Origin: an uncultured Pseudomonadales bacterium
GTDB lineage: Bacteria; Pseudomonadota; Gammaproteobacteria; Pseudomonadales; Azotimanducaceae
Assembly (NCBI GenBank): GCA_964548025.1
Contig: CAZJRI010000002.1
Coordinates: 26,175-90,174, forward strand
Direction: 5' to 3'
DNA: 64,000 nucleotides
Of the stretch, positions 46,737-55,663 are shown one piece after another. The translations under genes were made by a program, and so were the position numbers. Position 1 is the stretch's first letter; each line of letters begins with the position of its first letter. The notes below the pieces were generated by a model. That model was not told the origin of the DNA and did no database searches. It saw nothing but the letters and a program-made list of their open reading frames with translations.

Positions 46737-47864
46737 ATGAATAAGCGCCTAAATACCGAATCGGCTTCGGCTGCGATGGTAAGTGCAGGGCTCAATCAAA
46801 ATGCGTTGGCTGAAGAACTGGGTGTCTCCCGAGAAGCTGTTTCACAGTGGTTGAAAAATAAGTCATTCCCTCGCCCCAATAAACTCTTGCAACTGAGCAA
46901 AGTACTCTCTTTGTCATTTGACGAGTTGGTTATTAAAGATGACCCAGCTCTGCCCATTGTTGCCTTCAGAAAGAAAAAGGGAACAAAAACAAAAGATCAT
47001 CATATTGAAAAAGCGCAAACCATGGGCATGATGTTAAGGCAATTGGTCAATTATCTGCCGTTCGATACATTAGAGATGCCACCAATTCTTAAAGCCCCCC
47101 AGTTAGATTATGAATATATTCAAAGGGTGGTGAAAAAAGTCCGCGATGATATTCGGGTTAGAGACGGTGATGTTGTTAACTTTTCTCACCTGACTCAGCG
47201 ATTCAAGGACTTACAGGCGGTGATCGTCCCTGTATTGTGGGGGGACAAAAAACAACATCAGAATGCGCTGCATATATATTTACCCGATTCTAGAACCACG
47301 TGGGTTTATCTGAATCTGGATGTAAATGTACACGATGCCAAGTTTTGGATGGCACATGAATTAGGACATTGTCTCACACCTACACTGTCTGGTGATGATG
47401 CTGAAGACTTTGCGGACAATTTCGCGGGAGCCCTTTTATTCCCGGAACATCATGCAGCAGAAGCCTGGGAAGACCTGGTATCTCTGGGTGCAAGAAAGCA
47501 AAAACTTCAAAAACTGAAGGATATTGCTGAGTGGGTGATGATTTCGCCGTATACCGTTTATCTTCAAGTGAACGCCTATGCCAGGCACAGTGGTAAAGAA
47601 GTGATTGACCTAAATCCTGATATCCATGCGTGGAGCACAAAACTAAACAAACAGTATCACAATATGAGTGAAACGCTGTTTCAATCAACAACGCAACCGG
47701 ATGTGCCAAAATATATTGAAGAAACACAGGCTTTTTTTGGTACACAATTCTTTGATGTGCTCAGTCGATATCTACGCGAGCAAAAAAAGGGCCCCGGGAT
47801 TGTTCAGACCTTGATGGATATACCATTACTTGATGCCAGGAGCATTCACGCTGGGTTGACGTAA
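46737..47864 (+). CDS. XRE-family HTH fused to an ImmA/IrrE (M78, COG2856) zinc metallopeptidase domain
   Basis: N-terminal HTH LNQNALAEELGVSREAVSQWL. Central HEXXH (MAHELGHC) followed by ADNFAGALLFPE, typical of ImmA/IrrE. Confidence 0.8.
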   Translation: MNKRLNTESASAAMVSAGLNQNALAEELGVSREAVSQWLKNKSFPRPNKLLQLSKVLSLSFDELVIKDDPALPIVAFRKKKGTKTKDHHIEKAQTMGMMLRQLVNYLPFDTLEMPPILKAPQLDYEYIQRVVKKVRDDIRVRDGDVVNFSHLTQRFKDLQAVIVPVLWGDKKQHQNALHIYLPDSRTTWVYLNLDVNVHDAKFWMAHELGHCLTPTLSGDDAEDFADNFAGALLFPEHHAAEAWEDLVSLGARKQKLQKLKDIAEWVMISPYTVYLQVNAYARHSGKEVIDLNPDIHAWSTKLNKQYHNMSETLFQSTTQPDVPKYIEETQAFFGTQFFDVLSRYLREQKKGPGIVQTLMDIPLLDARSIHAGLT

Positions 47865-48421
47865 TGCCCCAATCAAAGATTCTGGTTGATACCAATGTGT
47901 ATATTCGTCTTGCGCAGTCAATTAGACCTCTGTTGTTTACCCCTTTTGGTGATGCCGAGTATTGCCTATACGTTATACCCGATCTCAACAAAGAACTGTC
48001 GAACAGGCGGCTCTCAACAAAATTCGCTTGGGTAAATGAAGAAGAATACGTTGATAACAGAAAACACTACCCGAAAGTTAGCAGAAAACAACAGAAGAGT
48101 ATTCAAGATACTTTTCAGTTTGTGTGGGATCACGTTGAATCCGAGTTGCCTGGCCCTTCGCGGGTTGACGCATTGTACATAGCGCATGGGATGGAACTGG
48201 ATATTCCCGTTGTCACTGATGACAATGACATGATTGAATTGGCAGAAACCTTTGATGCTCAATTTATGCGCACGCTAGATTTGTTAAAATTAATGCTTGA
48301 TGCGGGTCACATAGACATGCAAAAAATAGATAGCGTGGTGGCATATTGGAAATACGTTAATGATGCTCCTGGGAACTTAGCAAAGCATTATAAAAAACTG
48401 TTCAAAAAGACAATTAAGTAG
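47864..48421 (+). CDS. PIN-like nuclease domain protein (DUF4411-like), putative toxin/effector
   Basis: ILVDTNVYI start and acidic residues at LNKELS, RVDALYIA and VVTDDNDM fit a PIN four-acid layout. The ATG shares one base with the upstream TAA. Confidence 0.65.
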   Translation: MPQSKILVDTNVYIRLAQSIRPLLFTPFGDAEYCLYVIPDLNKELSNRRLSTKFAWVNEEEYVDNRKHYPKVSRKQQKSIQDTFQFVWDHVESELPGPSRVDALYIAHGMELDIPVVTDDNDMIELAETFDAQFMRTLDLLKLMLDAGHIDMQKIDSVVAYWKYVNDAPGNLAKHYKKLFKKTIK

Positions 48422-48450: not shown

Positions 48451-49740
48451 CTAATGCAACGCATACAAAGCCCCAGTCTCTGAAATCCAATCCTGCCCAT
48501 CGAATTCACTATCACCAGACGCATCACGTGATGGGTATATAGGCAAATGCTTGCTAACTAAAAACTCTGGAATGACTTTCCCATCGCCATTACGGAAGTA
48601 CCACGAGCCTTCAAAATTTCTATGAATGGTATATCCACCTTCGTGGAGTAGACGATGATGCCTTCCACACAACAGAATCGTATTTTGTAAACTGGTTTCA
48701 CCACCATCGACCCAATGCATCACGTGATGCGCGTCAAGAAAATTCCTATGTGAACAACCTGGATATCGACAACATTTATCCCTACCGAGTAGTGCGCGTT
48801 TTAACGATGGTGAGACCGTTCTATGCTTTCTACCAGCGTTGAGAACGTTGCCTTTGTCGTCGTGAACAATAGAAACAAGACTTGCATCACAGCTAATCCG
48901 GCGGATTGATTCAATGGGTAGATCGCTCTTACCGGTTCTATGTAACAAGGCCGACTCATCGACGTGTACCATCACCTGGTAGTGATCAGCAGTAGAACTT
49001 GTTTGTTTCTCATCCCCTTTGAGATAGCTCTGAGCGACTAGAACAAGAGCGTCTGCCTGATTCTGAAAAAAGGAAGTTGTAGGTGATGCATCGTTCTTGT
49101 TTGGATAGTTTTCTGGACATTCAGGGAGTGGTTGTTCGTCGTGCGGCGGCTTGTTGTTGGCCAGAGAAGCTACAGCCATTTCAATTGCCTTCATGACCAA
49201 TTCACCAGATTCTCGAGTTAGTTCAATATTGATACTCATGGAGCCGTCGTCGCGCATATTACAACTCAGGTACCTGGATTTATGGACACGGTTGACATCA
49301 TCGGTTGATCTATTGCGTTGAACATTACGTAGTTGGCGACAGTGATCTTCTACTTGTGATGCTGTTGCCAGAGTGGCGAATTCAAGCAGAGAAGCTTCAT
49401 TAGCCGTGTCTGCAACACGGGTCAATGCTCTGGCTTTAGAGTAAGAAAGGTTTCCGCACCGAAATGCATCAGAACACTGCGGTAAATCGAAAAGGGCCAG
49501 GGCAACCCTGACTTTTTCACGTGCAGCACCAAGCGAGATACCACATTTCATATTCAGCCATTCTGCACAGTTGTTGAAGTGCCATGCTTTCCAACCCTGA
49601 CGAATTTCGAATTCTCGCACCATGACTAAGAATTCATACTCTGATGCACTAATTTGATGGGCGAGTGAGATGATTTCTCCTTCCAGTTGATCAAGCGAAC
49701 GGGTTGAGATTGGAGAAACTTTTTCATTAATAAAGCTCAT
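48451..49740 (-). CDS. DUF222 / HNH endonuclease (13E12-repeat-type)
   Basis: C-terminal CCRYPGCSHRNFLDAHHVMHWVDGGETSLQNTILLCGRHHRLLHEGGY is a classic HNH block. The long helical N-terminus is typical of DUF222. Confidence 0.8.
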   Translation of the reverse strand: MSFINEKVSPISTRSLDQLEGEIISLAHQISASEYEFLVMVREFEIRQGWKAWHFNNCAEWLNMKCGISLGAAREKVRVALALFDLPQCSDAFRCGNLSYSKARALTRVADTANEASLLEFATLATASQVEDHCRQLRNVQRNRSTDDVNRVHKSRYLSCNMRDDGSMSINIELTRESGELVMKAIEMAVASLANNKPPHDEQPLPECPENYPNKNDASPTTSFFQNQADALVLVAQSYLKGDEKQTSSTADHYQVMVHVDESALLHRTGKSDLPIESIRRISCDASLVSIVHDDKGNVLNAGRKHRTVSPSLKRALLGRDKCCRYPGCSHRNFLDAHHVMHWVDGGETSLQNTILLCGRHHRLLHEGGYTIHRNFEGSWYFRNGDGKVIPEFLVSKHLPIYPSRDASGDSEFDGQDWISETGALYALH

Positions 49741-51374: not shown

Positions 51375-51494
51375 GCACTATTTGAAAACTCATACCGGAT
51401 TGATAGCAAGCTAATTGTATTCTTAAATTCAGGATTATAGACTGAACCTGTTACAAAGGTATTAGGCTGTTCCATCCTTTCAAAGGGATTGAAA

Positions 51495-54400
51495 ATGGAC
51501 AATCTAAAAGTCTTTATATCCTCACCCGGTGATGTTGAAGTTGAACGAACACTGGTCTCAAAAGTCATCAATCTATTACAGATTGAGTTTGATGAGCAGG
51601 TGGTTTTGGAAGCTGTTCTCTGGGAAAGAGAAGTCCTGCTGGCAACCGCCAATTTCCAGGATCAACTCGATCTGCCTTCAGTTTGTGATATCGCAGTGTT
51701 TATTCTGGGGGATCGAATCGGCACGCCCCTGCCTCCTAATTATCATCGTGAAGATGGCAGCAGATACCTGTCAGGCACAGAGTTTGAATTTGAAGATGCT
51801 ATAGCCGGTTTCCGCAAAAATGGATATCCCCATATTCTCGTTTACAAAAAATACCGGGATAAATATATAAAACTTGACGATAGGGTTGATGAGATCCTTA
51901 ACCAGAAGCGTGAACTGGAAAAGTTTGTCAACAAATGGTTCCTGGACGATGAAAACAAGGCATTCTCCGGTGCTTTCTACTCATTCAATTCCTCTGATGA
52001 ATTTGAACACCTGGTCGAAACCCATCTATACAAACTGATAAGCCAGTTGGTTGTCGGCCATTCTGAGAATCGCAGCGGTGCAGAAAAGCAGTGGCTGAGG
52101 GGCAATCCGTATCTGGGACTCAATAGCTTTCGGTATGAGGATGCACCAATTTATTTCGGTCGCACCAGGGCGATATCGGAATGTATTGATCTACTGGACG
52201 ACGCTGATGATTTTGAGTGCCCTTTTCTTTTGATACTCGGTATGAGCGGTGGCGGCAAGTCCTCCCTCGTGCATGCCGGAATACTTCCGATGTTAACCGG
52301 CAGGGGAATTGACAGAGGAATCAGAATCAGTCGATGGGCATCAATACGTCCGACTGAATTGCAGGGCAGTCTGGTCCAGCACTTGATATCGACTGTAGTT
52401 AATCAGTTCACGGCACTGGATGAAAAGAAAGAAGTCTGGGGAAGAGAGAGACTTCTGCAGTTGGAGCAGCTTTCAGATGATGAAGAACTGACCGCGACAC
52501 TGCTAACCTTACTGAACAAAGAGAAGGAGTATGAAGACGAGAGGTTTGTTCTGGTGGTGGATCAATTTGAGGAGTTATTTACCAGCAGCGCAATATCGGA
52601 ATCGGAGCGTAACCGCTTTGTTGTTCTGTTAGACGCACTGGTGCGCGGTGCGTCTGTATGGTGCATCTGCACCCTGAGAAGCGACTTTTATCCTGAACTT
52701 ACAAGCTTGCCAATGCTGGTAACACTGAAGACTGACGGAGCCCAGTTTGATTTGCCCGCTCCAACCCCATCTGAAATTTCTCTTATGATCAGGGGACCTG
52801 CGATTGCGGCCGGTTTGCATTTTGAGAAAGACAGCACAACCGGTATTTCACTGGATGAACGAATACGCAATATCGCAGAGGACAATCCCGAAATTTTACC
52901 TTTGCTGGAGTATACCCTTTCGGAATTGTACGAGCAGTGTGATGCGGACGGTTGGTTGACGAACAAAGCCTATATGGATCTGGGTGGCGTTGAAGGAGCA
53001 CTCGCTAAATCCGCAGAAAGATGTTTCGAAAGCCTGTCTCGTGAAGAGCAGGAATCTCTTCCAATTGTCTTCAATACATTATTTGATTTCTCGCCTGATG
53101 GTAGTAGTGGTCGACGATGGGCAAGTGTTGAGGACCTTCAAAGCAGGGAGGCGCTTGGTTTCCTGAGTGCGTTTGTTGATGCTCGCTTGTTTGTGATGGA
53201 ACTCGATAGCAATGAACAGCAAATCGTTACCGTTACCCATGAATCACTATTCAGATACTGGCCGAGACTAAGCGAGTGGGTAGAAAATAACAGGGATCAG
53301 CTCCGGGTGAGATCACGGGTTAGTGCGGCATCAGAACTATGGGCGCAGCAGGGGCAGTCTGCTGATTTATTGCTGGGCAGGGGCATCCCGGCTGAAGAAG
53401 CAGGGTTGCTGGTCGACTCTGGTTTGAGTTTGAGTGAAACAACCAGGCAGTTTATTCAGACATCACTTGCCCGGGTGCAGTTGAATCGAAGATTCAGATA
53501 TGGCGGATTCTTTCTGGTCTTTGTATTTGCAATAGTTGCAGGGGTATCCGGCTACCTGGCGAATCTGTCAAACAATGATGCACTTCGGCGACTGGCACAG
53601 AATGACGATCTCATTACTTTTATGTTGGATGATCTTATCGAACAACTGAGACCCATCGGCCGATTGGAGCCGATCAGAATTGTTGGTGAGAAAGCCATTA
53701 ACTATTTTGAGACCATCGATGACAAAGACAGAACCGATACTGCGCGGCTCAAACATGCTCAGGCGTTGCGTCAGGTGGGGCAGATCTATTTTGAAGCTGG
53801 TGAATTTAATGTGGCCACACAGGCATTCAGTGAATCTTTGAGGCAGGCCAGGATACTTCATGAACTTGATCGGCTGAACACCGACCGGGAGTTTGAACTA
53901 GGGCAGGCGTACTATTGGGTTGCCTTGTCCAAGTTTGACAGCGGGAAACTCAATGAGGCTGAAGAATTCCTTCTACGCTATTTTGAGATTTCAGAATCCC
54001 TTGCGAAGAAAAGACCGGACAATGTCGACTGGCAGATGGAACTTGGCTATGCGTACCAGAATTTAGGTGCCCTGGAAGAAAGGCGGAATCAAAATAGCGA
54101 AGCACTGGTCTATTTTGATTCCGCTACCCGTATATTTTCAACCCTGGTTGAGACCTACCCGGACCGTGGCTACATAGCAAGAGAGCTGGCAGAAAATTAC
54201 TCCTGGCTTGGCTCGAACTATCGAGACATGGGTGATTTAGATCGGTCACTGACCTATTTCCTGAGAGAAGAAGAAATCACGCGACGACTTGTAGAAGAGA
54301 ATGACGATGCCAACTGGCGATACAGTCTGATGCATGCCTATAGGCACCTCGGAGAACTCTACATTGATCTTGGCAACCTGGGAGAAGCCAGAGATCAATT

Positions 54401-55010
54401 CAATCTCGGCCTGAATATAGCAGACAAGTTGGTTGCCAGCGATGATCAGAATATTGACTGGATCTATGGCAAGGCGCTGTGTCGTTTCTATCTGGCCCAG
54501 ATCAGTGTCTATATGGACGACAATACTACCGTAAAGCAATCTCTTGATAGGGCTCTAGCTGCAATCGACCGACTCCGGGACAGTGACAATCTTAACTGGC
54601 GGATATTAGAAATCAGAGCTCAGCTATTACAGGCGGTTCACAATTTCAGGGTCAACGAGATCAATATGGCGAGCGAAATGATTGTAACAACTGACGATGA
54701 TATTAAGGCGTTGCTGCTGGAGTATCCGGACAATCTTGAGCTGAGGAGACTGGCATTGAAGAGTAATTTAGTTCTCTTGATGCGAAATGAAGATCTTGCA
54801 GAAAGAGCGCAGATACTGGCCGATGCCTCGGAACTGGTAACACAACAACTGCTTTCTTCGGACAGGCCAGAGGACCTGATAGCGATGTTGATGTTTTATG
54901 CAAATAGAGGAGATGAAAATGATCAACTGACGAACTACCGGGATAAGCTAGAAGGGATAGGTGTGAAACACCCTGAAATAGAACAAATAATGACGGCGGA
55001 ATATTACTAA
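51495..55010 (+). CDS. DUF4062/TIR-like N-terminal domain - STAND P-loop NTPase - single TM helix - TPR array protein
   Basis: KVFISSPGDVEVER...SGTEFEFEDA...HILVYKK (N-terminal Rossmannoid). GNPYLGLNSFRYEDAPIYFGR, Walker A GMSGGGKSS (52239-52262), Walker B FVLVVDQFEELFT (from 52548). Hydrophobic helix GGFFLVFVFAIVAGVSGYLA (about 53502-53564). About 470 aa of TPR-like repeats. ATG 51495 follows AAAGGGA; a TTG lies at 51489. Confidence 0.8.
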   Translation: MDNLKVFISSPGDVEVERTLVSKVINLLQIEFDEQVVLEAVLWEREVLLATANFQDQLDLPSVCDIAVFILGDRIGTPLPPNYHREDGSRYLSGTEFEFEDAIAGFRKNGYPHILVYKKYRDKYIKLDDRVDEILNQKRELEKFVNKWFLDDENKAFSGAFYSFNSSDEFEHLVETHLYKLISQLVVGHSENRSGAEKQWLRGNPYLGLNSFRYEDAPIYFGRTRAISECIDLLDDADDFECPFLLILGMSGGGKSSLVHAGILPMLTGRGIDRGIRISRWASIRPTELQGSLVQHLISTVVNQFTALDEKKEVWGRERLLQLEQLSDDEELTATLLTLLNKEKEYEDERFVLVVDQFEELFTSSAISESERNRFVVLLDALVRGASVWCICTLRSDFYPELTSLPMLVTLKTDGAQFDLPAPTPSEISLMIRGPAIAAGLHFEKDSTTGISLDERIRNIAEDNPEILPLLEYTLSELYEQCDADGWLTNKAYMDLGGVEGALAKSAERCFESLSREEQESLPIVFNTLFDFSPDGSSGRRWASVEDLQSREALGFLSAFVDARLFVMELDSNEQQIVTVTHESLFRYWPRLSEWVENNRDQLRVRSRVSAASELWAQQGQSADLLLGRGIPAEEAGLLVDSGLSLSETTRQFIQTSLARVQLNRRFRYGGFFLVFVFAIVAGVSGYLANLSNNDALRRLAQNDDLITFMLDDLIEQLRPIGRLEPIRIVGEKAINYFETIDDKDRTDTARLKHAQALRQVGQIYFEAGEFNVATQAFSESLRQARILHELDRLNTDREFELGQAYYWVALSKFDSGKLNEAEEFLLRYFEISESLAKKRPDNVDWQMELGYAYQNLGALEERRNQNSEALVYFDSATRIFSTLVETYPDRGYIARELAENYSWLGSNYRDMGDLDRSLTYFLREEEITRRLVEENDDANWRYSLMHAYRHLGELYIDLGNLGEARDQFNLGLNIADKLVASDDQNIDWIYGKALCRFYLAQISVYMDDNTTVKQSLDRALAAIDRLRDSDNLNWRILEIRAQLLQAVHNFRVNEINMASEMIVTTDDDIKALLLEYPDNLELRRLALKSNLVLLMRNEDLAERAQILADASELVTQQLLSSDRPEDLIAMLMFYANRGDENDQLTNYRDKLEGIGVKHPEIEQIMTAEYY

Positions 55011-55033
55011 GATGGATAAAAGGAGTGATTACC

Positions 55034-55663
55034 ATGGCGTTAGTTTTTGACATAACACATCTCGGACCTTATCTTCCTGACGAACCTAACGGCAAATGGA
55101 TTGCTGCCAACGCAGTAAAGGTTAATGCGGGATACAACCTTCGTTTCATGCACCCGGATGGGTGGATCTTGAAAGACTACCGGGTTTTTCAGGTAGACCC
55201 TAACGAGGACGGAAGTAAGCCTGTCTTAACCGCAACCAAGACAGCAGCACCTGAAGGCTCACCGGCGAGGCCGGCAATAGGGCAAAAGGAGGTCCTTGCC
55301 CCGAATCCGGTAAATAACGGGAATACCGTCGGCAGTGCTGTGGATACCAAAAGAAAGATCATGAAAAAGTTTCTGAAAGACGGCACGATATTGCCCGCGT
55401 ATATCAATTGGCCAGATCCGGAATCGGACCCGATTACAAATCCAACACCGGTTCGATACCACAACCCGAATCAACCGGGTCAATCTACGTTCAAGAGATT
55501 TTCGACGAGTATTCCCAATGCGGTCGTAATCAGAAACCGGCAAAATCGAGGGTATATCAAAGGCGGGATCGTACCGGTTTTTGAGGTCATTCTTCGATTT
55601 GAAGATACCCTAAACGGCAACGCCCAGATACTGATAGATCCACCTATCAGAAACCAACGCTAG
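55034..55663 (+). CDS. hypothetical protein (209 aa), partner of the STAND gene
   Basis: ATG preceded by AAAGGAG at proper spacing, 23 nt after the STAND stop. No Cys, Pro/Asn-rich, no signal peptide or TM, no recognisable motif. Confidence 0.55.
   Translation: MALVFDITHLGPYLPDEPNGKWIAANAVKVNAGYNLRFMHPDGWILKDYRVFQVDPNEDGSKPVLTATKTAAPEGSPARPAIGQKEVLAPNPVNNGNTVGSAVDTKRKIMKKFLKDGTILPAYINWPDPESDPITNPTPVRYHNPNQPGQSTFKRFSTSIPNAVVIRNRQNRGYIKGGIVPVFEVILRFEDTLNGNAQILIDPPIRNQR

What the first reader, a model, noticed from the sequence alone, without database searches (positions are those of the whole stretch)
51495..55663. AT-rich two-gene cassette: DUF4062/TIR-like - STAND NTPase - TM - TPR protein plus an orphan partner (best candidate for an undescribed system)
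The large ORF has three parts. (i) An N-terminal Rossmannoid module (KVFISSPGDVEVER ... SGTEFEFEDA ... HILVYKK) resembles DUF4062, TIR and nucleoside 2-deoxyribosyltransferase-like effector domains. (ii) A STAND-type P-loop NTPase carries the signature GNPYLGLNSFRYEDAPIYFGR, GMSGGGKSSLVHAGILP and FVLVVDQFEELFT. (iii) A long TPR array follows. A 209-aa ORF with its own AAAGGAG RBS starts 23 nt downstream and has no motif I can name. Single 60-nt lines hand-counted inside the large gene give 18/60 and 23/60 G+C, against 32/60 in the pst operon, which suggests horizontal origin. Effector-STAND-repeat architecture is the hallmark of Avs/bNACHT-type antiphage and other conflict systems. I cannot assign this domain combination, with a TM helix and a conserved-looking partner, to any named system. 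A possible promoter, TTGATA-N17-TTAAAT, sits at 51400-51428.
Basis: partly seen in the sequence, partly recalled or inferred. Interest (0 to 1): 0.8.

Follow-up and report, generated by a model that had tools for sequence, protein, structure and literature searches.

The report
Membrane-spanning NADase immune-type receptor plus orphan partner
This is a two-gene unit: a large membrane-anchored relative of bacterial immune receptors that carries a probable NAD-destroying enzyme domain, and a small protein of an almost unknown family that always follows this receptor's sensor arm; its building blocks are known, but this arrangement and the partner are undescribed.

Summary
Gene A (51495-55010, 1171 aa) has four parts:
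- a divergent DUF4062/"NIR" TIR-like domain with the catalytic-type Glu98 intact;
- a full-length nSTAND1 P-loop NTPase (PF20703, E=2e-90);
- one strongly hydrophobic TM helix (aa 670-692);
- a TPR array.

Gene B (55034-55663, 209 aa) starts 23 nt downstream behind AAAGGAG.

The "AT-rich/horizontal origin" claim fails: cassette GC is 0.472 against 0.481 for the window.

The A architecture is not rare. There are at least 1356 homologues and 278 species hits, and the TM helix is present in 111 of 111 full-length relatives. Its charge bias predicts an extracytoplasmic TPR.

Three 2026 preprints show DUF4062 domains are NADase effectors of anti-phage systems, including STAND-TPR (Avs2) proteins. 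The kind is therefore known.

B is what is new. It belongs to a tiny family (15 hits among 1.84 billion representatives) with no Pfam, PADLOC, PDB or viral-structure match. At the 10 of 13 distinct B-family loci where the upstream protein could be placed, it lies directly downstream of a protein ending in this TM-TPR subclade, including a TIR-TM-TPR protein without a STAND core.

Most likely this is an envelope-sensing NLR-like NADase with an accessory subunit. Verdict: new variant of a known kind, moderate interest.

The parts
51400..51428 (+). Candidate sigma-70-type promoter TTGATA-N17-TTAAAT upstream of gene A
   Evidence: The sequence was read directly. The scan lists it at 9/12 matches, but promoter-like sites are not enriched over shuffles (5 found, 6.6 expected). 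It is a candidate only.
51482..51488 (+). AAAGGGA ribosome-binding-like motif 6 nt before the ATG of gene A
   Evidence: Read from the sequence.
51495..55010 (+). Gene A: 1171-aa DUF4062(NIR)-nSTAND1-TM-TPR protein
   Evidence: ORF list. The exact 1171-aa product is in public collections. Pfam domains. Relatives: 62% identical orthologues in L001 and L007, at least 1356 homologues and 278 species hits.
51495..52064 (+). N-terminal DUF4062/NIR TIR-like domain (aa 1-190)
   Evidence: - DUF4062 PF13271 covers aa 5-102 against the whole 82-position profile: 21 bits (E=4e-4) in the whole-protein scan and 23.4 bits (E=7e-5) on the domain alone, against a cut-off of 24.7.
- 25 of 30 aligned relatives hit DUF4062, best E=1.4e-6.
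- The AF2 model has pLDDT 88.9 and a beta-alpha Rossmannoid fold.
- Foldseek top hits are TIR-STING 9lmq, then nucleoside deoxyribosyltransferase 8qc0 and DNPH1 9rpo. They are weak (TM-scores 0.34-0.37 on the query for the ones named; 0.44 for a related TIR-STING entry, 9lmr).
- PADLOC PDC-S60 matches the N-terminus at E=7e-7.
51771..51800 (+). Catalytic-type motif S93-G-T-E96-F-E98-F-E100-D-A102; E98-F99 corresponds to the DUF4062 'E-Y' catalytic region
   Evidence: - G94, E98 and A102 are invariant, and S93, T95 and E96 nearly invariant (at least 90%), in the 30-sequence domain alignment. All of them, and E100, are invariant in the 15-sequence full-length alignment.
- Catalytic Glu positions in characterised DUF4062 proteins are E97 (KpSwz), E98 (Vulcan), E103 (VstA) and E108 (PsAvs2). 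The 'E-Y' motif is described.
- The assignment of E98 is by position and motif. It was not made by direct alignment to those proteins.
52107..53363 (+). nSTAND1 P-loop NTPase module (aa 205-623)
   Evidence: PF20703 at E=2.1e-90 and 304.5 bits against a cut-off of 27.1, covering profile positions 1-378 of 379.
52239..52265 (+). Walker A, G249-M-S-G-G-G-K255-S-S257
   Evidence: Read from the translation. G249, S251, G252, G254, K255, S256 and S257 are invariant in the family alignment.
52545..52574 (+). Walker B, F351-V-L-V-V-D356-Q-F-E-E360
   Evidence: Read from the translation. D356, Q357 and E360 are invariant.
53502..53570 (+). Single transmembrane helix (aa 670-692, GGFFLVFVFAIVAGVSGYLANL), preceded by RVQLNRRFRY
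   Evidence: - The Kyte-Doolittle 19-residue mean is 2.22.
- An equivalent segment (1.6 or higher) occurs at positions 665-705 in 111 of 111 full-length homologues.
- The 15 residues upstream average 4.9 K/R and 0.28 D/E. The 15 downstream average 2.9 K/R and 2.4 D/E.
- N-in / C-out topology is an inference from the positive-inside rule.
53592..55007 (+). TPR array (aa 700-1171), the most divergent part; predicted extracytoplasmic sensor arm
   Evidence: - TPR_12, TPR_2, TPR_8 and related families match.
- Identity to L001 is 69% (N-domain), 65% (NTPase) and 57% (TPR). Identity to P0004 is 56%, 53% and 35%.
- The TPR region is BLAST-detectable in only 31 proteins of the comparison set, against about 205 for the N-domain and NTPase.
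55019..55025 (+). AAAGGAG ribosome-binding site of gene B, 8 nt before its ATG
   Evidence: Read from the sequence.
55034..55663 (+). Gene B: 209-aa soluble beta-rich protein of a very small uncharacterised family
   Evidence: - ORF. The exact product is in public collections.
- There are 3 homologues among 5.8e9 clusters and 15 among 1.84e9 representatives.
- No Pfam hit for B or its relatives.
- The AF2 model has pLDDT 71 and pTM 0.73, a beta-sandwich plus helix.
- No PDB or BFVD structural match.
- No hydrophobic N-terminus; the maximum Kyte-Doolittle 19-residue mean is 0.91.
55631..55660 (+). Extreme C-terminal signature of the B family (ILIDPPIRNQR; family consensus LVDPP[IV]RNEY at the C-terminus)
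   Evidence: D202, P203 and N207 are invariant and V201 and R206 nearly invariant across 13 family members. The tail is retained in all 9 paired loci compared.

Best explanation
A and B form a two-gene conflict (most likely anti-phage or anti-invader) module.

A is a single-pass inner-membrane, NLR-like receptor.
- Its cytoplasmic part is a DUF4062/NIR TIR-like NADase domain followed by an nSTAND1 ATP-driven oligomerisation switch.
- One TM helix follows, and then a divergent TPR array that is predicted to face the periplasm.

Proposed sequence of events:
1. A cue is bound by, or disturbs, the TPR arm.
2. The STAND module exchanges nucleotide and oligomerises.
3. The N-terminal NIR domains are brought together and activated.
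4. NAD+ is hydrolysed to ADP-ribose and nicotinamide.
5. The cell arrests, as in abortive infection.

B is an accessory subunit dedicated to this TPR subclade. It is either a co-sensor/adaptor or a brake that holds the NADase off. It travels with the TM-TPR module whether the cytoplasmic part is NIR-nSTAND1 or a plain TIR domain.

Shown here: the domain identities, the intact motifs, the conserved TM helix and its charge bias, and the strict, co-diverging gene pair.

Inferred: NADase chemistry, topology, a defence role, and any specific role for B.
For: Domains and motifs:
- nSTAND1 matches over its full length.
- The DUF4062 assignment rests on sub-threshold hits in the window copy, on 25 of 30 relatives hitting the family, and on a confident TIR/NDT-like model.
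- Glu98, Walker A Lys255 and Walker B Asp356 are invariant.

Published function of the parts:
- DUF4062 domains are NAD+ -> ADPR + Nam hydrolases that need the equivalent Glu and act as effectors of Avs2 (STAND-TPR), Swarozyc, Vulcan, Vesta and Evangelion. NIR genes are enriched near defence genes, 20% against 3.9% expected.
- nSTAND1 was defined as a counter-invader STAND clade.

Membrane topology:
- The TM helix is conserved in 111 of 111 relatives with a positive-inside bias.

Sensor-like behaviour of the TPR arm:
- It is the fastest-diverging part of the protein.
- The family is spread patchily across Gammaproteobacteria, Burkholderiales, Acidobacteriota, Bacteroidota and Planctomycetota, with paralogues side by side in L020 and L021.

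The A-B pair:
- B or B-like genes lie directly downstream, on the same strand, at 10 distinct places: the window, L001/2, L006-8, L009, L010, L011, L017, L099, L100 and L101. The flanking genes differ among those places where they can be seen.
- The upstream protein in L100 is TIR-TM-TPR with no room for a STAND module.
- A's TPR arm is most similar to exactly the B-linked proteins.
- Pairwise identities of the TPR tail and of B correlate: r=0.67, Mantel p=4e-4.

Defence-type neighbours:
- An RmrA-like (Rosmer) gene lies 3.6 kb upstream in the window.
- A PifA/QatA-like KAP NTPase lies next to B in L006.
Against: - There is no experimental datum for this family.
- The window copy of the N-domain scores just below Pfam's DUF4062 cut-off, and the Foldseek matches are weak (TM-score 0.45 or below).
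- PADLOC's Avs and NLR models do not match A. Only a candidate model (PDC-S60, N-terminus) and a generic TPR model match.
- The immediate neighbours in the window are metabolic genes (SnoaL, MaoC-like, CoA-transferase, SDR). It is not a classical defence island.
- An extracytoplasmic sensor is atypical for characterised Avs and bNACHT proteins.
- B has no signal peptide. If the TPR arm really is periplasmic, B cannot bind it directly. B's linkage to the TPR subclade may then reflect co-inheritance or an interaction with the TIR-like domain or the TM region.
- The mirror-tree correlation would also arise from simple co-inheritance.
- Three further B-family loci (L012/L013, L014, L016) lie on short contigs and show no recognisable A-type protein upstream. 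In L012 the neighbour is a divergently transcribed TIR_2 protein.
- In most other clades of the A family the downstream gene is different, often a secreted protein.
Confidence: 0.5

Rival explanations
1. A is a non-immune transmembrane signalling receptor. The family would be a housekeeping or environmental envelope sensor of sediment and soil bacteria. The periplasmic TPR arm would bind a cell-surface or secreted self protein or an envelope cue. The cytoplasmic STAND/NIR part would adjust NAD+/ADP-ribose levels or signal reversibly rather than killing the cell. B would be a pathway-specific accessory factor.
For: - The family is large and vertically well represented in Woeseiaceae and Steroidobacteraceae, with conserved synteny to one downstream secreted, weakly C-type-lectin-like protein in 20 of 80 loci. 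Other clades pair with PEP-CTERM or other secreted proteins.
- The window neighbours are metabolic genes and there is no compositional anomaly.
- No PADLOC system model matches.
- By my recollection, not checked here, the same TM-TPR module type also occurs on protein kinases.
Against: - Every experimentally characterised bacterial DUF4062 domain so far acts in anti-phage defence by NAD+ depletion.
- nSTAND1 is known from conflict-system contexts.
- The phyletic spread is patchy, the sensor arm diverges fast and paralogues sit side by side, which is typical of immune receptors.
- In one clade the partner gene overlaps A's stop codon and weakly resembles SLATT-type membrane effectors.
- Defence-type genes lie nearby in the window and in L006.
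Confidence: 0.22
2. A is a self-sufficient single-gene NLR-like system. B is an unrelated passenger gene that is merely co-inherited within a narrow lineage.
For: - Most members of the A family lack B (only L017 among 80 genome loci).
- Characterised NIR-STAND proteins such as PsAvs2 work alone.
- VstB of Vesta is operon-linked yet dispensable.
- B has no recognisable functional motif.
Against: - The pair is kept, on the same strand and adjacent, at 10 distinct places while the flanking genes differ among those places where they can be seen. Identity of A to the five upstream proteins compared with it directly is 37-63%.
- The pair survives replacement of the whole NIR-nSTAND1 part by a TIR domain.
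- The intergenic gap is 23-26 nt, and in the window the gap holds B's own RBS.
- B is conserved as well as or better than the TPR tail at long range.
Confidence: 0.13
3. B is the downstream effector or signal receptor. The NIR/TIR domain would produce an NAD+-derived signal rather than deplete NAD+. B would bind that signal to execute or relay the response, by analogy with Thoeris ThsB -> ThsA.
For: - B follows proteins whose common cytoplasmic element is a TIR-like domain, either NIR or TIR.
- B is cytoplasmic by sequence.
- In another clade of the family the coupled partner weakly resembles SLATT/DUF4231 nucleotide-responsive membrane effectors.
Against: - Characterised DUF4062 domains yield ADPR plus nicotinamide and act by depletion.
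- B is a small beta-sandwich with no similarity to known nucleotide-binding or effector folds.
- B's similarity pattern tracks the TPR subclade, not the N-terminal enzyme type.
Confidence: 0.1

Closest known systems
NIR(DUF4062)-effector Avs2 / NIR-bearing NLR-like proteins (Le Mouellic et al. 2026, bioRxiv 10.64898/2026.09.04.749371)
   Same: - Tripartite logic: N-terminal DUF4062/NIR domain with a conserved catalytic Glu, a central STAND P-loop NTPase and C-terminal TPR-type repeats.
- The expected output is NAD+ hydrolysis.
   Different: - The NTPase here is nSTAND1, and no PADLOC Avs model matches it.
- A conserved single TM helix separates the NTPase from the TPR arm, so the sensor is predicted to be extracytoplasmic.
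- A dedicated small partner gene is present.
nSTAND1 conflict-system proteins (Pfam PF20703; Kaur, Iyer, Burroughs & Aravind 2021, eLife 10:e70394)
   Same: The same NTPase family, with a full-length profile match. The general layout is also shared: N-terminal effector or adaptor, STAND core, C-terminal repeats or sensor.
   Different: - The described examples carry EADs, TIR, caspase or trypsin domains together with FGS/CLec or repeat sensors, mostly in multicellular bacteria.
- Neither DUF4062 nor the term 'TM-TPR' occurs in the main text of that paper.
- The B partner was not found in any paper searched or read.
Swarozyc, Evangelion, Vulcan and Vesta (DUF4062 defence systems, 2026 preprints)
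   Same: The same effector domain family and the same catalytic Glu position (E97, E98, E103).
   Different: - Those are DUF4062 fused to an auxiliary domain, to HEAT repeats, or paired with an alkaline phosphatase.
- As described, none has a STAND NTPase or a TPR arm, and no membrane anchor is mentioned for any of them.
Bacterial NACHT (bNACHT) proteins with TM regions (Kibby et al. 2023; Kaur et al. 2020/2021)
   Same: The precedent that some bacterial STAND/NLR-like proteins carry TM segments and are proposed to sense intramembrane or periplasmic signals.
   Different: - The NTPase clade differs: no NACHT hit appeared in the Pfam scan.
- Those are typified by multiple TM segments rather than one helix followed by a large TPR ectodomain.
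Eukaryotic NPHP3/TTC41/NWD1-type NIR-STAND-repeat proteins
   Same: The same domain order (NIR-like, STAND, TPR). Precomputed Pfam hits on most listed bacterial relatives of A include PF24885, the nephrocystin-3 TPR domain (the family is named).
   Different: - The window protein itself does not hit PF24885.
- The eukaryotic proteins lack the TM helix.
- The relationship was not tested phylogenetically here.

Membership tests
nSTAND1 (Pfam PF20703) | Profile match above the curated cut-off over the whole NTPase module | tested here: met
   304.5 bits against 27.1, E=2.1e-90, profile positions 1-378 of 379, aa 205-623.
STAND P-loop NTPases | Intact Walker A (GxxxxGK[ST]) and Walker B (hhhhD) motifs | tested here: met
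   GMSGGGKSS (K255) and FVLVVDQFEE (D356) are present and invariant in the family alignment. ATP binding and hydrolysis were not tested.
DUF4062 / NIR (Pfam PF13271) | Profile match above Pfam's gathering score | tested here: inconclusive
   The window copy scores 21.0 bits in the whole protein and 23.4 bits on the domain alone, against a cut-off of 24.7. The match covers the full 82-position profile. 25 of 30 aligned relatives match at E<=0.01, best 1.4e-6.
DUF4062 / NIR | Conserved catalytic glutamate ('E-Y' region) at about residue 97-108 | tested here: met
   SGTEFE98F is present. E98 is invariant in 30- and 15-sequence alignments. The position agrees with E97, E98, E103 and E108 in characterised proteins. 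Equivalence was inferred from motif and position, not from a direct alignment to those proteins.
DUF4062 / NIR | TIR-like flavodoxin/Rossmannoid fold | tested here: met
   The AF2 model has pLDDT 88.9 with alternating beta-alpha topology. The best PDB matches are TIR-STING, then NDT and DNPH1, but TM-scores are low at 0.34-0.37 for those named (0.44 for a related TIR-STING entry). There is no sequence-level match to any PDB chain.
DUF4062 / NIR | NAD+ hydrolase activity giving ADPR and nicotinamide | not testable with these tools
   Needs an enzyme assay.
Avs (antiviral STAND, Avs1-5) | Match to Avs NTPase/sensor profiles | tested here: not met
   PADLOC-DB returned only PDC-S60 (N-terminal domain) and a generic TPR model for A.
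Avs / NLR-like defence proteins | Effector - STAND - repeat-sensor tripartite architecture | tested here: met
   Pfam domain order is DUF4062, nSTAND1, TPR.
Avs / NLR-like defence proteins | Protection against phage; activation by a phage protein | not testable with these tools
   Needs phage challenge and co-expression assays.
bNACHT | NACHT module | tested here: not met
   No NACHT family appears among the Pfam hits at E<=1. Only nSTAND1, AAA_16 and a weak nSTAND6 hit are listed.
Swarozyc / Evangelion / Vulcan / Vesta | DUF4062 coupled to the system-specific auxiliary domain, HEAT repeats or an alkaline phosphatase partner | tested here: not met
   The architecture here is nSTAND1-TM-TPR with partner B. 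No HEAT or alkaline-phosphatase hit was found. No profile models of these 2026 systems were available for a direct test.
Proposed A-B module (this report) | B-family gene immediately downstream, on the same strand, of a protein ending in the related TM-TPR arm | tested here: met
   - Ten distinct places show the pair: the window, L001/2, L006-8, L009, L010, L011, L017, L099, L100 and L101.
- In L014 and L016 the upstream fragments did not match the A profile. By eye they share a similar C-terminal ending. In L012 the neighbour is a divergently transcribed TIR_2 protein.

The most novel reading that the evidence does not exclude
The locus represents an undescribed class of envelope-surveillance immune receptor. 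It would be a membrane-spanning NLR-like protein whose TPR ectodomain detects an extracytoplasmic event, such as phage components or damage in the periplasm, and transmits it across the membrane to a STAND-gated NADase. It would work with an obligatory small co-factor of a new fold family. That co-factor is matched to the sensor module and can be re-used with either NIR-STAND or plain TIR cytoplasmic heads.
Probability: 0.3. Interest if true: 0.75.

Novelty: new variant of a known kind. Interest (0 to 1): 0.55.

Why it matters
- Characterised bacterial STAND/NLR-like defence proteins sense phage proteins in the cytoplasm. A widespread family with a conserved TM helix and an outward-facing TPR arm would mean NLR-type switches are also used for transmembrane sensing.
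- This family offers a tractable case, because its effector domain now has a known activity (NADase).
- The partner B defines a new, very rare protein family. Its strict linkage to one sensor subclade, regardless of the cytoplasmic head, gives a direct handle on how such receptors are regulated or what they recognise.
- The family may also bear on the origin of eukaryotic NIR-STAND-TPR proteins such as NPHP3.

Tried and rejected
- **AT-rich or horizontally acquired island: rejected.** GC and GC3 are ordinary, there is no tRNA and there are no flanking repeats.
- **Known defence-system membership by PADLOC: no system-level hit**.
- **NCBIfam:** only sub-threshold TPR noise.
- **B against Pfam, NCBIfam and PADLOC:** nothing.
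- **B structure against PDB and BFVD:** only chance-level Ig-like or CopC-like matches, with E>0.4.
- **N-domain profile against PDB sequences:** nothing, so no solved DUF4062 structure was available for a direct comparison.
- **Phage origin: rejected.** No B relative was found in IMG/VR, and only one weak N-domain relative.
- **Metagenome pattern scan for B:** two short contigs only.
- **Word-indexed homologue search for A:** Its ranking is therefore not a phylogeny.
- **B as a secreted ligand of the TPR arm:** considered, but B and its relatives have no signal peptide.
- **Promoter call:** the sequence is present, but promoter-like sites are not above chance.
- **Terminator after B:** none predicted.

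Full report
**1. The observation**

Gene A runs from 51495 (ATG; an in-frame TTG lies at 51489) to 55010 and encodes 1171 aa. Gene B runs from 55034 to 55663 and encodes 209 aa.
- A's stop codon is at 55008-55010, AAAGGAG is at 55019-55025 and B's ATG is at 55034, so the 23-nt gap and the RBS are confirmed.
- Exactly these two products (1171 aa and 209 aa) exist in public collections, on a 92-kb contig and on short JGI and ENA metagenome contigs.
- TTGATA-N17-TTAAAT is at 51400-51428. Promoter-like sites are not more frequent than in shuffled sequence (5 found, 6.6 expected).
- The "AT-rich" claim does not hold. Cassette GC is 0.472 against 0.481 for the window (sd 0.017 for windows of equal size; 25th percentile), and GC3 is like that of the neighbours.
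- There is no tRNA in the window and no flanking repeat.

**2. Gene A, domain by domain**

*NTPase.* Pfam gives a full-length nSTAND1 match: PF20703, E=2e-90, aa 205-623, profile positions 1-378 of 379. Walker A (GMSGGGK255SS) and Walker B (FVLVVD356QFEE) are invariant in the family.

*N-terminal domain (first ~200 aa).*
- It scores just under Pfam's DUF4062 cut-off: 21 bits in the whole protein and 23.4 bits on the domain alone, against 24.7, but across the entire profile.
- 25 of 30 aligned relatives hit DUF4062.
- An AlphaFold model built from that alignment is confident (pLDDT 88.9) and is a beta-alpha Rossmannoid fold.
- Its best PDB matches are a TIR domain (TIR-STING), followed by nucleoside 2'-deoxyribosyltransferase and DNPH1. 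TM-scores are low, 0.34-0.37 for those named and 0.44 for a related TIR-STING entry.
- The motif SGTE96-F-E98-F-E100-DA has E98 invariant in both alignments.
- PADLOC matches only the N-domain, to the candidate PDC-S60, plus a generic TPR model. No Avs or NLR model matches.

*Transmembrane helix.*
- A single very hydrophobic segment (aa 670-692, Kyte-Doolittle 19-residue mean 2.22) follows RVQLNRRFRY.
- An equivalent segment is present in all 111 full-length homologues at positions 665-705.
- The 15 residues upstream average 4.9 K/R and 0.28 D/E. The 15 residues downstream average 2.9 K/R and 2.4 D/E. Only 3 homologues have a second such segment.
- By the positive-inside rule the enzymatic parts are cytoplasmic and the TPR array (aa 700-1171) is extracytoplasmic. 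This is an inference.

**3. How common A is**

- The complete layout is shared by all 120 best hits.
- At least 1356 proteins match A, and 278 GTDB species representatives encode a relative. The 80 best genome loci come from Woeseiaceae, Steroidobacteraceae and other Gammaproteobacteria, Burkholderiales, Thermoanaerobaculia, Bacteroidota and Planctomycetota.
- These proteins are usually annotated "tetratricopeptide repeat protein".
- The N-domain also occurs alone, with a receiver domain, or with EAD8.
- Conservation falls from the N-domain to the TPR arm. Identity to L001 is 69%, 65% and 57%. Identity to P0004 is 56%, 53% and 35%. The TPR arm is BLAST-detectable in only 31 proteins of the comparison set, against about 205 for the other two parts. 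That is the pattern of a diversifying sensor.

**4. What is already known about the parts**

- nSTAND1 was defined as a STAND clade of counter-invader systems (Kaur et al. 2021, PMC8195603). It also appears in DGR-diversified putative antigen sensors.
- Three 2026 preprints establish DUF4062 as a TIR-like NADase that converts NAD+ to ADPR plus nicotinamide and depends on a conserved Glu:
  - KpSwz E97 in Swarozyc (10.64898/2026.05.01.722283);
  - Evangelion, with its "E-Y" catalytic region (10.64898/2026.06.25.731849).
- E98-F99 of A fits that motif and position.
- TM-bearing bacterial NACHT proteins have been proposed to sense membrane or periplasmic signals.
- The effector-STAND-repeat kind, including its DUF4062 version, is therefore known.
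- None of the papers read for this point mentions a membrane helix in a DUF4062 protein, or the partner.

**5. Gene B**

- B is real and conserved but extremely rare. There are 3 homologues (46-60% identity) among 5.8 billion clusters. A profile search of 1.84 billion representatives gives 15 hits: six share at least the C-terminal half or more with B, seven are ~130-165-aa relatives matching mainly the C-terminal part, and two are long proteins hit only on short repeated stretches.
- Family hallmarks are an N-terminal W...F.AP..W...FKVFQV.P block and an extreme C-terminal VYDFIL.F.D...LVDPP[IV]RNEY tail.
- No Pfam family matches any member.
- The model (pLDDT 71, pTM 0.73) is a beta-sandwich with one helix and a low-confidence Pro-rich insert.
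- Foldseek finds nothing in the PDB or BFVD.
- There is no signal peptide or hydrophobic segment.

**6. Linkage of B to the receptor**

- At the ten distinct places where the upstream protein can be placed, a B-family gene sits directly downstream, on the same strand, of a protein ending in the A-type TM-TPR region.

| Locus | Upstream protein |
|---|---|
| window | gene A |
| L001/L002 | A orthologue, 62% identity |
| L006-L008 | A orthologue, 62% identity |
| L009 | fragment matching the A C-terminus |
| L010 | A relative, 47% identity |
| L011 | TPR fragment matching the A profile |
| L017 | A relative, 38% identity; the only one of 80 genome loci with a B-like gene |
| L099 | TPR fragment matching the A profile |
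| L100 | TIR-TM-TPR protein |
| L101 | TPR fragment matching the A profile |

- The flanking genes differ among the places where they can be seen.
- The upstream protein in L100 is a TIR domain followed after about 70 residues by the TM helix and the TPR arm. There is no room for a STAND module.
- A's TPR arm is most similar to exactly these B-linked proteins. It is 35% identical to the L100 TIR-TM-TPR protein, more than to most proteins that share A's N-domain and NTPase.
- Pairwise identity of B and of the upstream protein's last 215 residues correlate: r=0.67, Mantel p=4e-4. This shows co-divergence as a pair, not contact.
- B therefore follows the TM-TPR sensor subclade, and a TIR-like cytoplasmic head, rather than the NTPase.
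- Three further B-family loci on short contigs do not show this. In L014 and L016 the upstream fragments did not match the A profile, and in L012/L013 the neighbour is a divergently transcribed TIR_2 protein.
- Other clades of the A family have other conserved downstream genes:
  - a secreted protein weakly resembling C-type lectins (20 loci);
  - a ~570-aa protein with weak SLATT_1/DUF4231 similarity whose start overlaps A's stop in three loci (8 loci);
  - PEP-CTERM proteins (6 loci);
  - a secreted ~730-aa protein (5 loci, plus a similar-sized ORF beside the second copy in L020).

**7. Genomic context**

- The immediate neighbours are metabolic: SnoaL, two MaoC-like dehydratase genes, a glyoxalase-like gene, a CoA-transferase, an SDR and a metallo-beta-lactamase-fold gene.
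- Upstream, at 46.7-49.7 kb, lie an HTH-peptidase_M78 gene matching PADLOC RmrA (Rosmer) at E=2e-15, an unknown 185-aa gene and a DUF222-HNH endonuclease, in slightly lower-GC DNA.
- In L006 the gene after B is a PG_binding-KAP NTPase resembling PifA and QatA.
- This gives modest support for a defence neighbourhood.

**8. Interpretation**

- The best-supported reading (confidence about 0.5) is a two-gene conflict module. A membrane-spanning NLR-like receptor has an outward TPR arm. When triggered, the arm drives nSTAND1 oligomerisation and activates the NIR NADase. B is an accessory subunit tied to this sensor subclade.
- B's lack of an export signal is unexplained if it is meant to meet a periplasmic TPR arm. 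It may instead act on the TIR-like head or at the membrane.
- The rivals are a non-immune envelope-signalling receptor (0.22), B as a passenger gene (0.13), and B as a receptor or effector for an NIR-derived signal (0.10).

**9. Verdict**

- This is a new variant of a known kind.
- The large gene is a member of nSTAND1 and, very probably, of DUF4062/NIR. It is not a member of Avs or bNACHT by profile.
- The conserved single-pass topology and the B family are the novel elements.
- Interest is moderate (0.55).

Noticed in passing
window 46737-48421 (+): An HTH_3 + Peptidase_M78 gene (375 aa) matches many PADLOC RmrA (Rosmer) models, best E=2e-15. Its end overlaps the start of an unknown 185-aa ORF that has a weak PIN hit (E=0.006). 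This looks like a Rosmer-like two-gene defence or toxin-antitoxin candidate. It lies in slightly lower-GC DNA (0.41-0.45).
   Followed up: partly
window 48451-49740 (-): A DUF222 + HNH endonuclease gene (429 aa) with low GC3 (0.395) lies between the Rosmer-like pair and the metabolic genes that precede gene A.
   Followed up: no
L100 2-2378: A TIR(ThsB_TIR/TIR_2)-TM-TPR protein without any STAND module is followed 20 nt later by a B-family gene. The same sensor arm and partner are thus re-used with a different cytoplasmic head.
   Followed up: partly
L060, L064, L067, L076, L080, L082, L083 (and L057); e.g. L060 11488-13209: In one clade of the A family the downstream ~570-aa gene abuts A's stop codon, overlapping it in three loci. 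It begins with an 'IGVTGHRDL' domain and has C-terminal TM segments with weak SLATT_1/DUF4231 similarity (E 0.0045-0.29). It may be a membrane effector coupled to the NIR domain.
   Followed up: partly
L020, L022, L025, L027, L028 and 15 further loci; e.g. L020 13708-15168: Twenty A-family loci share a downstream secreted ~490-560-aa protein with a signal peptide and a weak C-type-lectin hit (E 0.011-0.21). Six further loci have PEP-CTERM proteins, and five have a secreted ~730-aa protein. Downstream partners of this receptor family are often extracytoplasmic.
   Followed up: partly
homologues listed: Precomputed Pfam hits on most listed A-family relatives include PF24885 (nephrocystin-3 TPR domain); the window protein does not hit it. 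Human NPHP3 is reported to carry a borderline NIR/DUF4062 domain plus STAND and TPR, so this bacterial family may be close to the ancestry of that eukaryotic architecture.
   Followed up: no
L001 10764-12337; L006 1545-3413: Genes after B differ between loci. L001 has an unknown 218-aa protein plus a DUF900 alpha/beta hydrolase. L006 has a PG_binding_1 + KAP NTPase protein resembling PifA/QatA (PADLOC E=2e-22).
   Followed up: partly
L102 4236-4556: Downstream of P0005, an A relative with the next most similar TPR arm, lies a 106-aa protein ending in '...LEEDPTIVNQ'. That ending is reminiscent of the B-family C-terminal tail. It matches the B profile only marginally (E about 0.009 in a tiny search).
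   Followed up: partly
L020 521-3259 and 10001-13585; L021; L092: Two A-family paralogues lie within about 7 kb of each other in some genomes. The second copy in L020 and L021 is followed by a 735-aa ORF.
   Followed up: no
method note: The word-indexed homologue search for A did not return the 62%-identical orthologues that were found through the partner gene.
   Followed up: yes
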